The notes under the pieces are model-generated. The model was given only the letters and a program-made list of their open reading frames with translations. It was not told where the DNA came from and made no database searches. 11,149 nt of DNA, from UHGV virus genome UHGV-0098625; one strand, given 5' to 3'. A program made the position numbers and the translations under genes. Numbering within the stretch: the first letter of the stretch is position 1; each line of letters begins with the position of its first letter. The stretch is from a virus. Shown one piece after another: positions 2,204 through 7,839 of the stretch.

Positions 2204-2985
2204 GCTGCCACCTTCTGCTCAGTGGCTTTCTGTTTCAGGAATCCAAGAGCTTTCACTGCTTCGGCCTGTGTCAGTTCTGACGATGCGCGAATGTCGCGGC
2301 GAAATATCTGGGAACAGAGCGGCAATAAGTCGTCATCCCATGTTTTATCCAGGGCGATCAGCAGAGTGTTAATCTCCTGCATGGTTTCATCGTTAACCGG
2401 AGTGATGTCGCGTTCCGGCTGACGTTCTGCAGTGTATGCGGTATTTTCGACAATGCGCTCGGCTTCATCCTTGTCATAGATACCAGCAAATCCGAAGGCC
2501 AGACGGGCACACTGAATCATGGCTTTATGCCGTAACATCCGTTTGGGATGCGACTGCCACGGCCCCGTGATTTCTCTGCCTTCGCGAGTTTTGAATGGTT
2601 CGCGGCGGCATTCATCCATCCATTCGGTAACGCAGATCGGATGATTACGGTCTTTGCGGTAAATCCGGCATGTACAGGATTCATTGTCCTGCTCAAAGTC
2701 CATGCCATCAAACTGCTGGTTTTCATTGATGATGCGGGACCAGCCATCAACGCCCACCACCGGAACAATGCCGTTCTGCTTATCAGGGAAGGCGTAAATT
2801 TCTTTCGTCCACGGATTAAGGCCGTACTGGTTGGCGACGATCAACAATGCGATGAACTGCGCATCGCTGGCATCACCTTTAAATGCCGTCTGGCGAAGAG
2901 TGGTGATCAGTTCCTGTGGGTCGACAGAATCCATGCCGACACGTTCAGCCAGCTTCCCTGCCAGCGTTGCGAGTGCTGTACTCAT
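2200..2985 (-). CDS. bet: Red-beta single-strand annealing protein, 261 aa
   Basis: ORF track. [261 protein letters not shown] matches lambda Bet. Confidence 0.97.
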
Positions 2986-2990
2986 CCGTT

Positions 2991-3287
2991 TTATACCTCT
3001 GAATCAATATCAGCCTGATGGTGAGCAATGGTTTCAACTATGTACCGGATGTGTTCTGCCATGCGCTCCTGAAACTCAACATCGTCATCAAACGCACGGG
3101 TAATGGCTTTTTTGCTGGCCCCGTGGCGTTGCAAATGATCGATGCATAGCGATTCAAACAGGTGCTGGGGCAGGCCTTTTTCCATGTCGTCTGCCAGTTC
3201 TGCCTCTTTCTCTTCACGGGCGATCTGCTGGTAGTGACGCGCCCAGCTCTGAGCCTCAAGACGATCCTGAATGTAATAAGCGTTCAT
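2991..3287 (-). CDS. gam: Gam, RecBCD inhibitor (98-aa short form)
   Basis: ORF track. [94 protein letters not shown] matches lambda GamS. The upstream frame closes at a stop (3342..3344) with no in-frame ATG, so no long form is encoded. Confidence 0.95.
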
Positions 3288-3362
3288 GGCTGAACTCCTG
3301 AAAATGGCTGTGAAAATATCGCCCGCGAAATGCCAGGCTGATTAGGAAAACAGGAAAGGGGG

Positions 3363-3506
3363 TTAGTGAATGCTTTTGCTTGATCTCAGTTTCAGTATTA
3401 ATATCCATTTTTTATAAGCGTCGACGGCCTCACGAAACATCTTTTCATCGCCAATAAAAGTGGCGATAGTGAATTTAGTCTGGATAGCCATAATTGTTTG
3501 ATCCAT
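3363..3506 (-). CDS. kil: Kil host-killing / FtsZ-inhibiting protein, 47 aa
   Basis: Internal Met of track ORF 3363..3632: [47 protein letters not shown], which matches lambda Kil. GGAG about 10 nt upstream of the ATG at 3506. The 89-aa extended frame is not used. Confidence 0.9.
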
Positions 3507-3639
3507 TTTTTGGGACTCCTGGCTGATTAAGTATGTCGATAAGGCGTTTCCATCCGTCACGTAATTTACGGGTGATTCGTTCAAGTAAAGATTCGGAAGG
3601 GCAGCCAGCAACAGGCCACCCTGCAATGGCATATTGCAT
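3475..3639 (-). CDS. cIII: CIII, FtsH protease inhibitor that stabilises CII, 54 aa
   Basis: Absent from the ORF track (too short). Hand translation from the ATG at 3639 gives [54 protein letters not shown], stop at 3475..3477, AGGAG RBS upstream. Matches lambda CIII and overlaps the kil start in another frame, as in lambda. Confidence 0.9.
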   Translation of the reverse strand: MQYAIAGWPVAGCPSESLLERITRKLRDGWKRLIDILNQPGVPKNGSNNYGYPD

Positions 3640-3711
3640 GGTGTGCTCCTTATTTATACATAACGAAAAACGCCTCGAGTGAAGCGTAATTGGTATGCGG
3701 TAACGCCGCGC

Positions 3712-4080
3712 TCAGGCGGCCTTGATAGTCATATCATCTGAATCAAATATTCCTGATGTATCGATATCGGTAATTCTTATTCCTTCACTACCATCCATTG
3801 GAGGCCATCCTTCCTGACCATTTCCATCATTCCAGTCGAACTCACACACAACACCATATGCATTTAAGTCGCTTGAAATTGCTATAAGCAGAGCATGTTG
3901 CGCCAGCATGATTAATACAGCATTTAATACAGAGCCGTGTTTATTGAGTCGGTATTCAGAGTCTGACCAGAAATTATTAATCTGGTGAAGTTTTTCCTCT
4001 GTCATTACGTCATGGTCAATTTCAATTTCTATTGATGCTTTCCAGTCGTAATCAATGATGTATTTTTTGATGTTTGACAT
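3712..4080 (-). CDS. ea10: Ea10-like protein (lambda ea10/ssb position), 122 aa
   Basis: ORF track. Size, position between cIII and the N-proximal insert, and sequence (MSNIKKYIIDYDWKASIEIEIDHDVMTEEKLHQINNFWSDSEY...) fit lambda Ea10 as I recall it. GAGGAT RBS upstream of the ATG at 4080. Confidence 0.8.
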   Translation of the reverse strand: MSNIKKYIIDYDWKASIEIEIDHDVMTEEKLHQINNFWSDSEYRLNKHGSVLNAVLIMLAQHALLIAISSDLNAYGVVCEFDWNDGNGQEGWPPMDGSEGIRITDIDTSGIFDSDDMTIKAA

Positions 4081-4100
4081 CTATTCATATCCTCATAGAT

Positions 4101-4126
4101 AAAAAATCGCCCTCACACTGGAGGGC
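4101..4126 (-). terminator. intrinsic terminator in the pL operon (tL2-like), just upstream of ea10
   Basis: Plus-strand gccctc-acactg-gagggc at 4109..4126 preceded by aaaaaatc at 4101..4108. On the minus strand this is a GC-rich 6-bp stem followed by GATTTTTTAT. Confidence 0.55.
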
Positions 4127-4232
4127 AAAGAAGATTTCCAATAATCAGAACAAGTCGGCTCCTGTTTAGTTACGAGCGACATTGCTCAGTGTATTCACTC
4201 GTTGGAATGAATACACAGTGCTTATTCGCAGC

Positions 4233-4559
4233 CTACATAATCATTCCGGTTATTATTACCATTTCAATATCACTATCTTTCATAATGATTGGAGTTGAGT
4301 TATCAACTTTACTTTTACTCCATTTTCCTGCATCAGTTTTTACCGCTCCACAATAAGAAAGCCAATCATCATCACAATGTTCTGGAACACTAATTCTGAC
4401 AAGAACTCGTGATAGTGCTTTTTCGATACTTTCATCGCAATTAGCATTTGTGTAATTGCCGTGAGACAATTTCAAATCGTTAACTTCATCTTCATTGGCA
4501 TCAAAAATATAGATTTCAGTCGACTCTGGAACATTTTCATAAACCATTAAAACTTTCAT
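4233..4559 (-). CDS. hypothetical acidic protein, 108 aa (the track's 129-aa ORF begins at an upstream ATG at 4622)
   Basis: ORF track 4233..4622. Preferred start is the ATG at 4559 (MKVLMVYENVPESTEIY...), with GGGG 5 nt upstream and no overlap with the preceding gene. Rich in D/E; AT-rich DNA. No family recognised. Confidence 0.55.
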   Translation of the reverse strand: MKVLMVYENVPESTEIYIFDANEDEVNDLKLSHGNYTNANCDESIEKALSRVLVRISVPEHCDDDWLSYCGAVKTDAGKWSKSKVDNSTPIIMKDSDIEMVIITGMIM

Positions 4560-4606
4560 TTTTACCCCATATTGTTTATGCCAAAAATAAAGGCCGACTA
4601 TGCGTC

Positions 4607-5077
4607 CTAGTAGAATACCCAATTTTCTGTTTCTTGGTTGTGTCCAAAGTTATATTCAATATCTGGTGTTGATGTATCAATATTCTTCATCCCATCAACA
4701 AGAGTTGATACAACAGCCAAATCTTGTTTGATTCTCATTAAATGGTATTTCTTCCGGCGCAATAAACTTTCAATGGCAAGTTTCTTCGTTGGGAATGCAA
4801 AAGATCTTTCTGCATTTTTTGCTACTTTCTTAATTGCATATCTATTTCTCCTTTGTTTCCATTCCTGTAACCACTGATTTGGTACTGGTTTAAAATTAAC
4901 AATCCAATGCGCAGGAACCAACCATGCATAATGGTCTGTCTGATGAAAAGCTATATATTGAAGTGCGAATATTTTTATCCCATCTTCTTCAACTGTCGCC
5001 TGGAATCTCCAGAAAACAGGCATTCCATCATGTTCAGTTTCTGATTCAGGAAAAGGTACGCTCCATGATTTTGTCAT
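4607..5077 (-). CDS. hypothetical protein, 156 aa (basic C-terminal half)
   Basis: ORF track. GAGGTGA RBS immediately upstream of the ATG at 5077. AT-rich DNA. No family recognised. Confidence 0.6.
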   Translation of the reverse strand: MTKSWSVPFPESETEHDGMPVFWRFQATVEEDGIKIFALQYIAFHQTDHYAWLVPAHWIVNFKPVPNQWLQEWKQRRNRYAIKKVAKNAERSFAFPTKKLAIESLLRRKKYHLMRIKQDLAVVSTLVDGMKNIDTSTPDIEYNFGHNQETENWVFY

Positions 5078-5131
5078 ATCTCACCTCAAATAAGTGGTTT
5101 GCTGCGAAAATAAATCCGCTTAAGTTACCTG

Positions 5132-5878: not shown

Positions 5879-5941
5879 AGTATCACCGCCAGTGGTATTT
5901 ATGTCAACACCGCCAGAGATAATTTATCACCGCAGATGGTT
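5879..5941 (-). promoter_or_regulatory. pL promoter with operators OL1, OL2, OL3
   Basis: OL1 tatcaccgccagtggta 5881..5897, OL2 caacaccgccagagata 5905..5921 and OL3 tatcaccgcagatggtt 5925..5941 are identical to lambda OL sites as recalled. Minus-strand -35 TTGACA (5907..5902) and -10 GATACT (5884..5879) with 17-bp spacing. Confidence 0.9.
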
Positions 5942-6090: not shown

Positions 6091-6120
6091 GCAAAGAAAA
6101 CCCGGCGCAGATGCCGGGTT
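6091..6120 (-). terminator. intrinsic terminator downstream of the rex-slot gene (timm-like)
   Basis: Minus-strand RNA AACCCGGC-AUCUGC-GCCGGGUU followed by UUCUUUG. On the plus strand the same hairpin is followed by GUGGUGG, so it is unidirectional. Confidence 0.7.
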
Positions 6121-6130
6121 GTGGTGGAGA

Positions 6131-7036
6131 TCAATGCTTATTTGGGAGTGCTGGTTTTTTTATCGACTCTAATAGCTCGGAGGCGTTACTAATCTTTTTG
6201 TTCCCAAGGTAATTTGGCAGTTTTTCCATTGCGTAATTATCGTGTAGCCATTTTCTGAACACGCCAAGTGCCTCAATAGGATAAATCCAAGCTGTTATAT
6301 GCTTATTTGCAGCTGACTGCCTGTAATTTTCGGGGAATAAATGTGGGTACTGCACCCTTTCCCCGAATTTCTCAGATAGCCCATTAGCTGTCCAATACTT
6401 TCCCCAGTGAATTCCAACACTTCCATCCAAAGATGTGGTGTCATCCATTGGGAATCCTCCTCCGATCAGGTTCATGGCAATGTCAGCTATCTCTCTGAAT
6501 ACTGCAAAATGAGTTGTCGGTATCTGATCGTTTAGCTTAATCCTTGCTCTATAGTTCTCGAATGAGATATCTATTGAAGCATTTGGGTTGTAATTTGACT
6601 TTTCATAAATCATTCGCTTAAGCGTGTACTCAGCCAAGCGAACAAAATTACCTATTGCGACTGACCTATCAAAATTGGTGGCATCTAGAGCGTAGTAACG
6701 GAGGATAGCCATGCAAACATAGTCAGGATAAGCATGAGTTTCCACGTTTGAGCTATTTAAAACGCGAGTGTATAGCTTTTCGACGTTATGAAACCCTTTC
6801 TCAGCTAAATACGCAGCTACTTTTTGACCTCTGGGTTTGTTTTTCTCTGTGTTCCAGTTTGATGTGAACACCCTCAGTGGCGTGTCATCAATGCCGCATA
6901 ACTTTGCGAGACCGTAGAGAGTTAGGTAAGGAGTTCCATCATTGAGAACGCCCATAGGAATATCATCAGAAACAACCTCTACTACAGGGAAAAGCTGCAT
7001 TTGATGCAGGGATTCGCTATTGCTGTTAATCGACAT
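6131..7036 (-). CDS. hypothetical 301-aa protein in the rexA/rexB position; candidate phage-exclusion / abortive-infection protein
   Basis: ORF track. ATG at 7036 with AAGGAAA RBS; lies 86 nt downstream of the cI stop on the same strand and is followed by the terminator at 6091..6120. AT-rich relative to cI, N and exo/bet. The N-terminal segment (LFPVVEVVSDDIPMGVLNDGTPYLTLYGLAKLCGID) resembles KilA-N/Bro-N-type domains by eye. Function inferred from position only. Confidence 0.85.
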   Translation of the reverse strand: MSINSNSESLHQMQLFPVVEVVSDDIPMGVLNDGTPYLTLYGLAKLCGIDDTPLRVFTSNWNTEKNKPRGQKVAAYLAEKGFHNVEKLYTRVLNSSNVETHAYPDYVCMAILRYYALDATNFDRSVAIGNFVRLAEYTLKRMIYEKSNYNPNASIDISFENYRARIKLNDQIPTTHFAVFREIADIAMNLIGGGFPMDDTTSLDGSVGIHWGKYWTANGLSEKFGERVQYPHLFPENYRQSAANKHITAWIYPIEALGVFRKWLHDNYAMEKLPNYLGNKKISNASELLESIKKPALPNKH

Positions 7037-7122
7037 ATCTTAATGATTTCCTTATTTTTATTGTAGGGATCTTCTTTTTTATTTCCTACATCTAGATGCG
7101 TATAAAGTCTCTTGCTGCGGAC

Positions 7123-7839
<717 letters not shown>

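What the first reader, a model, noticed from the sequence alone, without database searches (positions are those of the whole stretch)
6091..7122. A single 301-aa AT-rich gene replaces rexA/rexB downstream of cI
Between cI and OL/pL, where lambda carries the rexA-rexB exclusion pair, this prophage has one unrelated 301-aa ORF (6131..7036). It is on the same strand as cI, 86 nt downstream with its own RBS, and is followed by a clean unidirectional terminator (6091..6120), so it should be expressed in the lysogen from pRM/pRE. Its base composition is visibly lower in G+C than the flanking cI and N genes (about 35-42% in lines I counted by hand, against about half in exo/bet), as expected for a horizontally acquired moron. 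The N-terminal roughly 60 residues look like a KilA-N/Bro-N-type domain by eye. That is the reported architecture of BstA-type prophage abortive-infection proteins, which also sit next to the repressor gene. I cannot confirm homology from sequence reading alone; it may be an uncharacterised defence gene.
Basis: partly seen in the sequence, partly recalled or inferred. Interest (0 to 1): 0.8.

Follow-up and report, generated by a model that had tools for sequence, protein, structure and literature searches.

The report
Known BstA phage-defence gene beside cI
The 301-residue gene that sits where lambda carries rexAB is bstA, a prophage abortive-infection defence gene, and its protein and upstream DNA are identical to the E. 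coli allele tested experimentally in 2021, so the gene is already known.

Summary
A 301-aa ORF (6131..7036, minus strand) starts 86 nt downstream of a lambda-type cI and is followed by the lambda Timm terminator. It replaces rexAB cleanly: homology to a rexAB-carrying prophage stops at the cI stop codon and resumes at the terminator hairpin.

The protein matches the BstA profiles (PADLOC 1e-105, PHROG 6e-133) and is 42% identical over its full length to BstA of Salmonella phage BTP1. It is 100% identical to BstA-Ec of E. coli NCTC10963, which Owen et al. 2021 showed to confer phage defence and to carry a cognate self-immunity element (aba). The 149 bp from the cI stop codon to +60 of bstA are identical too. 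The gene is therefore known and characterised, not an uncharacterised defence gene.

One result appears to be new. In 68 and 53 non-redundant BstA loci from two independent collections, short direct repeats 56 or 57 bp apart flank the start of the gene. This is the geometry of the mapped BTP1 aba. The window has ATCCCT twice, 57 bp apart, at the same offset from a conserved protein motif as in BTP1. I predict aba-Ec at 7008..7071.

The parts
7123..7836 (-). cI repressor, lambda immunity type (237 aa). It is the upstream gene of the operon.
   Evidence: ORF. PHROG 'transcriptional repressor'. 98.0% nucleotide identity to lambda cI-cro. The annotated equivalent in phage CL707 is shown.
6121..7122 (-). 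The exchanged cassette (1002 bp) that occupies the rexA-rexB slot: the 86-nt leader, bstA, and 10 nt after the stop codon.
   Evidence: blastn against the rexAB-carrying prophage L100: homology stops at window 7123 and resumes at 6120.
7008..7071 (-). Predicted aba-Ec self-immunity DNA element (64 bp), running from -35 to +29 relative to the A of the bstA ATG (+1). This is inferred, not mapped experimentally.
   Evidence: By analogy with the mapped 63-bp aba of BTP1, which spans -29..+34 and has terminal CCCGCC repeats 56 bp apart (PMC8585504). The first repeat copy sits at the same offset (-115) from the conserved MGVLNDG codons in both loci. The family-wide 56/57-bp signal is. The sequence is identical to the NCTC10963 locus, which confers cognate immunity.
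7062..7070 (-). Direct repeat copy 1, ATCCCTaCA (exact core ATCCCT at 7065..7070), upstream of the start codon.
7005..7013 (-). Direct repeat copy 2, ATCCCTgCA (exact core ATCCCT at 7008..7013), inside codons 8-11 and 57 bp from copy 1.
   Evidence: ATCCCTRCA occurs only at these two places in the 11-kb window, against 0.21 expected by chance.
7049..7053 (-). Shine-Dalgarno-like AAGGA, 12 nt before the ATG and inside the predicted aba.
   Evidence: Sequence.
6131..7036 (-). bstA coding sequence (301 aa plus stop codon), the BstA-Ec allele.
   Evidence: The protein is identical to WP_000026554.1, to phage CL707 ABO40695.1 and to the NCTC10963 protein.
6599..6988 (-). N-terminal domain (residues about 17-146), with a helix-turn-helix-like pair at helices 40-47 and 51-59. 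It is the putative DNA-binding, KilA-N-like domain.
6161..6574 (-). C-terminal domain (residues about 155-292), Pfam BstA_C (PF26567). It is the presumed effector domain and has no solved structural relative.
   Evidence: Precomputed PF26567 hits. Invariant residues R165, E182, D204, S206, G208, W211, W215, H232 and Q240. No significant PDB match by sequence or by fold.
6093..6120 (-). Timm intrinsic terminator of the cI operon, shared with lambda (stem 6099..6120 followed by a T-tract).
   Evidence: Annotated as Timm in CL707. It lies in the homologous flank shared with the rexAB prophage.
5879..5941 (-). OL3-OL2-OL1 operators and the pL promoter, which form the downstream boundary of the slot.
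   Evidence: Promoter scan found TTGACA-17-GATACT. Operators located. CL707 annotation.

Best explanation
The ORF is bstA, and its product is identical to the E. coli allele BstA-Ec. It lies in the slot between cI and Timm of a lambda-immunity prophage, and I infer that it is transcribed in the lysogen as the second gene of the cI operon from pRM (and from pRE during establishment).

According to the published work on this family, BstA is made constitutively. When a foreign phage infects, BstA gathers at the replicating phage DNA and blocks its replication. The infected cell dies without releasing progeny, which is abortive infection. The N-terminal domain, which has a helix-turn-helix-like motif, probably binds DNA. 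The conserved C-terminal BstA_C domain is the presumed effector, and its biochemistry is unknown.

The prophage spares itself through aba, a short DNA element that overlaps the 5' end of bstA and acts as DNA, only on its cognate BstA. I predict that aba of this allele lies at 7008..7071. It would be defined by two ATCCCT copies 57 bp apart that flank the ribosome-binding site and start codon.
For: What is shown here:
- The protein matches the BstA models: PADLOC 1.3e-105 and PHROG 6287 6e-133, both nearly full length.
- It is 42% identical to BstA-BTP1 over 300 residues.
- It is exactly the protein encoded by NCTC10963 contig CAADJH010000002.1 (L097).
- Window 6977..7125 is identical to the NCTC10963 sequence.
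- Primer NW_761, used by Owen et al. to clone bstA-Ec, matches window 7099..7122 exactly.
- The same protein accession, WP_000026554.1, is the E. coli 2012C-4431 homologue listed in their Table S1.

What the paper shows (PMC8585504):
- BstA-Ec protects Salmonella LT2 against Salmonella phages and is somewhat weaker against coliphages.
- A P22 phage carrying the bstA-Ec locus becomes immune to BstA-Ec only.
- For BstA-BTP1 the paper shows abortive infection, co-localisation with phage DNA, a block of phage DNA replication, and a 63-bp aba whose terminal direct repeats are essential.

Operon context: cI and bstA are on the same strand, the leader is 86 nt with no terminator-like site, Timm follows the gene, and the cassette junction is exactly at the cI stop codon.

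The aba prediction:
- In 68 non-redundant BstA loci, 38 have an exact direct repeat of at least 6 nt with spacing 56 or 57 just upstream of the conserved MGVLNDG codons. Control windows from the same loci give 4.6 (binomial p about 1e-26).
- In 29 of the 68 loci, the best self-repeat in the region has exactly this spacing.
- The signal was replicated in 53 viral-contig loci, with 13 and 16 repeats at d = 56 and 57 against about 1.8 per other spacing.
- In 14 of the 15 loci checked there are exactly two copies, both direct, within 1.5 kb; the window's shorter 6-mer also recurs at unrelated positions.
- The repeat sequence differs between loci, which fits cognate specificity.
Against: - No expression or phenotype data exist for this particular prophage.
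- The aba of BstA-Ec has never been mapped. The paper shows only that the locus with its upstream sequence confers immunity.
- The window's repeat is only 6 nt exact (9 nt with one mismatch). On its own it would arise by chance with a probability of about 0.03 at that spacing and position.
- A second repeat, AGGAAAT with 35-bp spacing, also lies in the leader.
- About 45% of the family loci show no exact repeat of 6 nt or more at 56/57 bp.
- The Shine-Dalgarno spacing of 12 nt is long.
- Abortive infection and the replication block were shown for the BTP1 allele, not for BstA-Ec.
Confidence: 0.9

Rival explanations
1. The gene is bstA, but the ATCCCT pair is a chance repeat. The real aba-Ec would lie elsewhere in the leader or the 5' coding region, or would be defined by other features such as the AGGAAAT pair 35 bp apart or the hairpin at 6995..7009.
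For: The repeat is short. A 6-nt match at d = 56 or 57 within a 46-nt range of start positions has a chance probability of about 0.03. About 45% of family loci lack an exact repeat of 6 nt or more at this spacing. The other repeat and a terminator-like hairpin are present in the same stretch. The aba-Ec element is unmapped.
Against: The first copy sits at the same offset (-115) from the conserved motif as the functionally proven BTP1 repeat, with spacing 57 against 56. The family-wide peak is confined to d = 56 and 57. Closely related alleles keep a repeat at the same place while its sequence changes.
Confidence: 0.3
2. The gene's main role in this lysogen is something other than phage defence, for example a virulence or fitness factor. 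The Salmonella homologue was first described as the virulence-associated gene st313-td.
For: The BTP1 record still names the gene st313-td. Owen et al. cite earlier reports linking it to virulence and to anti-virulence. BstA-Ec was weaker against coliphages than BstA-BTP1.
Against: The identical protein gave strong phage resistance when expressed. The family is tightly linked to prophage repressor genes across many bacterial groups. No mechanism has been proposed for a role in virulence.
Confidence: 0.05
3. bstA is not co-transcribed with cI but has its own promoter in the 86-nt leader. Its expression would then be independent of the lysogenic state.
For: TACAAT, a near-consensus -10 hexamer, directly follows repeat copy 1 (sequence). 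The leader is AT-rich.
Against: The promoter scan found no sigma-70-like site on the minus strand in 7037..7122. There is no terminator after cI. The cassette junction lies at the cI stop codon. The homologous BTP1 gene is highly expressed in lysogeny, and the paper presumes that bstA shares the repressor's promoter.
Confidence: 0.1

Closest known systems
BstA-Ec of E. coli NCTC10963 (Owen et al. 2021, PMC8585504)
   Same: The 301-aa protein is identical. The 149 bp from the cI stop codon to +60 of the gene are identical. The gene has the same position after a lambda-type cI, and the same Cro, CII-like, O-like and DnaB-type neighbours.
   Different: The prophage backbone to the left of N differs, because the window is a different mosaic. 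There is a one-base difference in a C-run after the terminator relative to the published reverse primer.
BstA-BTP1 of Salmonella phage BTP1 (the founding member, with the mapped aba)
   Same: 42% identity over the full length. Both have two domains and both lie directly after the repressor gene. In both, a direct repeat flanks the start codon, with the first copy at the same offset from the MGVLNDG codons.
   Different: The repeat is ATCCCT with 57-bp spacing rather than CCCGCC with 56-bp spacing. The aba elements are not interchangeable between alleles. BTP1 has an extra small gene before N.
Lambda RexA-RexB exclusion system
   Same: It occupies the same genomic slot between cI and Timm and belongs to the same operon. 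Both are prophage-encoded abortive-infection systems expressed in the lysogen.
   Different: There is no sequence relationship. Rex has two genes, a sensor and a membrane ion channel that collapses the membrane potential. BstA is one cytoplasmic protein that blocks phage DNA replication, and it has a DNA-based self-immunity element.
ORF CL70704 of wild lambda-immunity phage CL707 (GenBank EF120459, cited as Degnan et al. 2007)
   Same: The protein is 100% identical, and the immunity region is 99.8% identical over cI-cro.
   Different: It was deposited as a hypothetical protein, before BstA was described.

Membership tests
BstA abortive-infection family | Full-length sequence homology to BstA proteins | tested here: met
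   PADLOC BstA E 1.3e-105 (residues 8-286). PHROG 6287 E 6e-133 (residues 5-301). 42% identity to BstA-BTP1 over residues 2-300.
BstA abortive-infection family | C-terminal BstA_C domain (Pfam PF26567) | tested here: met
   A precomputed PF26567 hit on this exact protein and on 115 of 116 homologues. The local Pfam copy lacks this model, which explains the empty result.
BstA abortive-infection family | N-terminal KilA-N(-like) DNA-binding domain | tested here: inconclusive
BstA abortive-infection family | Located directly downstream of, and on the same strand as, the prophage repressor gene | tested here: met
   The gene starts 86 nt after cI with no intervening terminator. The same layout is seen in BTP1 and in Klebsiella and Pseudomonas phages.
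BstA abortive-infection family | Cognate aba DNA element overlapping the 5' end of bstA, with terminal direct repeats | tested here: met
   This is met at the sequence level only. ATCCCT occurs twice, 57 bp apart, around the ATG, at the BTP1 offset. The family-wide 56/57-bp signal is. Function was not testable here. The identical locus confers cognate immunity according to PMC8585504.
BstA abortive-infection family | Confers phage resistance by abortive infection with a block of phage DNA replication | not testable with these tools
   Phage resistance is published for the identical protein. Abortive infection and the replication block are published for BstA-BTP1 only.
Lambda RexAB | Homology to RexA or RexB | tested here: not met
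   The PADLOC scan returned only BstA and a weak HTH model. The rexAB segment of L100 has no blastn match to window 6121..7122.

The most novel reading that the evidence does not exclude
The direct repeats 56-57 bp apart around the start codon would be the general architecture of aba self-immunity elements across the BstA family. Each element would have two half-sites in direct orientation, whose sequence differs between alleles and sets the cognate specificity. The half-sites would be read by the N-terminal helix-turn-helix-like domain. In alleles close to the window's, a GATCG repeat core goes with 'DEAPLR(M/L)F' in the predicted recognition helix (residues 51-59), and an ATCCC core goes with 'DDTPLRVF'. 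If this holds, aba could be predicted for any bstA locus, here at 7008..7071. It would also give a testable recognition code for how a prophage marks its own DNA as self.
Probability: 0.55. Interest if true: 0.5.

Novelty: already known. Interest (0 to 1): 0.25.

Why it matters
For annotation, RefSeq still labels this gene 'hypothetical protein' in many E. coli records. It should be named bstA, with its leader marked as a probable aba element. About 1.3% of complete E. coli genomes carry it (69 of 5,426).

For biology, the gene itself adds nothing new. The comparative by-product may be useful, because how aba DNA silences BstA is an open question in the 2021 paper. A conserved two-site geometry with allele-specific sequence points to direct recognition at two sites, and it defines simple experiments.

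Tried and rejected
- Pfam-A and NCBIfam hmmscan of the protein gave no hits. The local Pfam copy predates BstA_C.
- A Pfam scan of 67 family members gave no KilA-N or Bro-N hit, only scattered noise.
- A profile search against PDB sequences gave nothing significant. The best match was a GntR-like HTH at E 0.84.
It was repeated with homologues from the protein search.
- Literature searches for later mechanistic work on BstA or aba found only passing mentions.
- I considered whether the repeats could be a target-site duplication or a relic of common ancestry. I rejected both, because the two copies stay identical within a locus while differing between loci, and the spacing is fixed at 56 or 57 bp.
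- I considered Dam GATC sites as the common element of the repeats. I rejected this as a general feature, because the BTP1 aba has no GATC.
- The co-variation between the repeat core and helix residues is not claimed as proof. The two features lie only about 130 bp apart, so they may simply be inherited together.

Full report
**Observation.**
The window is the early region of a lambdoid prophage. It carries exo, bet, gam, kil and cIII on the left, then N, OL/pL, cI, cro, a cII-like gene, an O-like replication gene and a DnaB-type helicase.

The ORF 6131..7036 on the minus strand encodes 301 aa. It starts 86 nt after the stop codon of cI (7123..7836) on the same strand. The cI-cro segment is 98.0% identical to phage lambda. 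OL1-3 and pL are present at 5879..5941.

An intrinsic terminator follows the ORF. Its stem is at 6099..6120, followed by a T-tract, with a folding energy of -15 kcal/mol. No terminator-like site lies in the 86-nt leader.

I compared the window with a lambda-immunity prophage that carries rexA and rexB (E. coli ETEC1732, L100). Homology stops exactly at the cI stop codon (7123) and resumes at the terminator hairpin (6120). A 1002-bp cassette, 6121..7122, therefore takes the place of rexAB, and the terminator is lambda's own Timm.

G+C of the gene is 41.9%. This compares with 45.7% for cI, 51.1% for N and 52-53% for exo and bet.

**Identity.**
The local Pfam-A and NCBIfam copies gave nothing. 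The defence and phage libraries were unambiguous. The PADLOC BstA model matched at E 1.3e-105, and PHROG 6287, 'BstA abortive infection system, replication inhibitor', matched at E 6e-133. Both matches are nearly full length.

BLASTP against BstA of Salmonella phage BTP1 gives 42% identity over residues 2-300.

The protein is 100% identical to several database entries:
- the 'hypothetical protein' CL70704 of the wild lambda-immunity phage CL707, GenBank EF120459;
- RefSeq WP_000026554.1 in E. coli STEC1587 and in strain 2012C-4431, the latter being one of the homologues listed in Table S1 of Owen et al. 2021;
- most importantly, the protein encoded on contig CAADJH010000002.1 of E. coli NCTC10963 (L097), which is the source of the allele those authors call BstA-Ec.

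Window 6977..7125, from the cI stop codon to +60 of bstA, is identical to the NCTC10963 sequence. The authors' cloning primer NW_761 matches window 7099..7122 exactly. Newer Pfam releases place the C-terminal half in PF26567, BstA_C.

**What is known about how it works (PMC8585504).**
BstA is expressed from the prophage during lysogeny. On infection by a foreign phage it forms foci at the phage DNA and prevents phage DNA replication. The infected cell lyses without producing infectious progeny, which protects the population.

BstA-Ec expressed in Salmonella LT2 gave resistance comparable to BstA-BTP1, and it was somewhat weaker against coliphages.

The prophage protects itself with aba. In BTP1 this is a 63-bp DNA element spanning -29 to +34 of bstA, with CCCGCC at both ends. 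A single-base change in either copy abolishes immunity. The element acts as DNA, and it acts in trans only at high copy number.

Immunity is allele-specific. A P22 phage carrying the bstA-Ec locus with its upstream sequence is immune to BstA-Ec only. The aba of BstA-Ec was not mapped. The biochemical activity of BstA and the way aba silences it remain open questions.

**Structure.**
An AlphaFold model was built from 83 homologues. Its mean pLDDT is 85.8 and its pTM is 0.51. It shows:
- a disordered tail at residues 1-12;
- an N-terminal domain at residues 17-146, with three short strands, a helix-turn-helix-like pair (helices 40-47 and 51-59), further strands and two long helices;
- a mostly helical C-terminal domain.

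The KilA-N-like label is therefore plausible at the fold level but is not supported by sequence profiles. The tools did not report which residues were aligned.

The C-terminal domain carries the family's invariant polar residues: R165, E182, D204, S206, H232 and Q240. It has no recognisable solved relative.

**Locating aba in the window, and a family-wide pattern.**
In the window, ATCCCT occurs at 7065..7070 and at 7008..7013, 57 bp apart. With one mismatch the repeat extends to 9 nt (ATCCCTRCA). This 9-mer occurs nowhere else in the 11 kb. The two copies flank the ribosome-binding site and the ATG.

To test whether this is more than chance, I collected BstA loci from one genome per species and from phage records. 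I anchored each locus on the conserved MGVLNDG codons and searched the 160 nt upstream of them for direct repeats.

- Among 68 non-redundant loci, exact repeats of 6 nt or more have spacing 56 (16 cases) or 57 (23 cases). Neighbouring spacings have 1-6 cases each.
- 38 loci have such a repeat, against 4.6 in control windows from the same loci (binomial p about 1e-26).
- In 29 loci the best self-repeat in the region has exactly this spacing, where about 2 would be expected.
- The first copy lies 111-137 nt before the anchor. It is at -115 both in BTP1, whose repeat is functionally proven, and in the window.
- In 14 of the 15 loci checked there are exactly two copies, both direct, within 1.5 kb; the window's shorter 6-mer also recurs at unrelated positions.
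- The repeat sequence varies. Examples are CCCGCCA, GATCGCCA, GGTCACCA, CCGCCAG, AAGGAAATCACC and ATCCCT. Within a locus the two copies match.
- An independent set of 53 non-redundant viral contigs shows the same peak, with 13 and 16 cases against about 1.8 per other spacing.

The 2021 paper mentions the repeat only for BTP1, and I found no later paper that analyses aba. I therefore predict aba-Ec at 7008..7071. On present evidence I rate this prediction at about 0.7.

**A further lead.**
In ST131-type E. coli strains such as ZH063 (L004), the gene is 94% identical in DNA to the window's. Its first 54 nt and its leader, however, are replaced by a different sequence. The protein differs at residues 2-25 and at eight positions between residues 51 and 93.

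Across alleles 70-100% identical to the window protein, a GATCG core in the intragenic repeat copy goes with 'DEAPLR(M/L)F', and an ATCCC core goes with 'DDTPLRVF'. These residues lie in the predicted recognition helix 51-59. The association appears in two different protein backgrounds. This is what a recognition code would look like. However, the two features are only about 130 bp apart, so joint inheritance is an equally simple explanation.

**Verdict.**
The gene is a known, experimentally characterised defence gene, so the finding as given is not novel. The only new element is the comparative evidence for a conserved two-site architecture of aba, which is a computational prediction.

Noticed in passing
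BstA loci L003-L089 and L101-L180; in the window 7005..7070: Across the BstA family, two short direct repeats exactly 56 or 57 bp apart flank the start of the gene. 38 of 68 non-redundant loci have one, against 4.6 expected, and the result was replicated in 53 viral contigs. The repeat sequence differs between loci. The 2021 paper describes this only for BTP1.
   Followed up: yes
L004 (E. coli ZH063, ST131 type) 4933..5112, compared with window 6983..7122; also L118, L126, L129, L130: A second E. coli bstA allele is 94% identical in DNA, but its leader and first 54 nt are swapped. Its repeat core is GATC(T/G)CAG instead of ATCCCT. Residues 51, 52 and 56 in the predicted recognition helix change together with the repeat core across several alleles. 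This could be a specificity code or simple linkage.
   Followed up: partly
window 3700..5100: The most AT-rich stretch of the window (34-38% G+C) lies between N and cIII. It holds three minus-strand ORFs: 4607..5077 (156 aa, PHROG 1636), 4233..4559 (108 aa, PHROG 4658) and 3712..4080 (122 aa, DUF2528). All are of unknown function, with no PADLOC hit. Related prophages carry ral and sieB, or an Nmad5-family gene, in this slot, so it is a second site where accessory genes are exchanged.
   Followed up: partly
window 6995..7009 (-): A terminator-like hairpin, CTGCATCAAATGCAG followed by CTTTTCC, lies inside codons 10-16 of bstA and overlaps the second repeat copy. It could be part of aba, an attenuator, or chance.
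   Followed up: no
L095 (E. coli PK12, CP074031) 2219..3906: The identical BstA protein, with a leader differing by one base, follows a different repressor (231 aa) paired with an HTH_3-type Cro. The bstA-aba cassette therefore moves between immunity types.
   Followed up: no
window 7065..7071; repeat copies in L004, L012, L023, L118-L134: In the enterobacterial alleles closest to the window's, the repeat cores usually begin with GATC, a Dam methylation site, in both copies. In the window only the upstream copy has it. The BTP1 aba has no GATC, so this is not general.
   Followed up: no
E. coli RefSeq records (for example NZ_CP129259.1, NZ_CP024289.1): The same gene is annotated 'hypothetical protein' in many complete genomes and 'BstA C-terminal domain-containing protein' in others. 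It is present in 69 of 5,426 complete E. coli genomes, always on the chromosome.
   Followed up: partly
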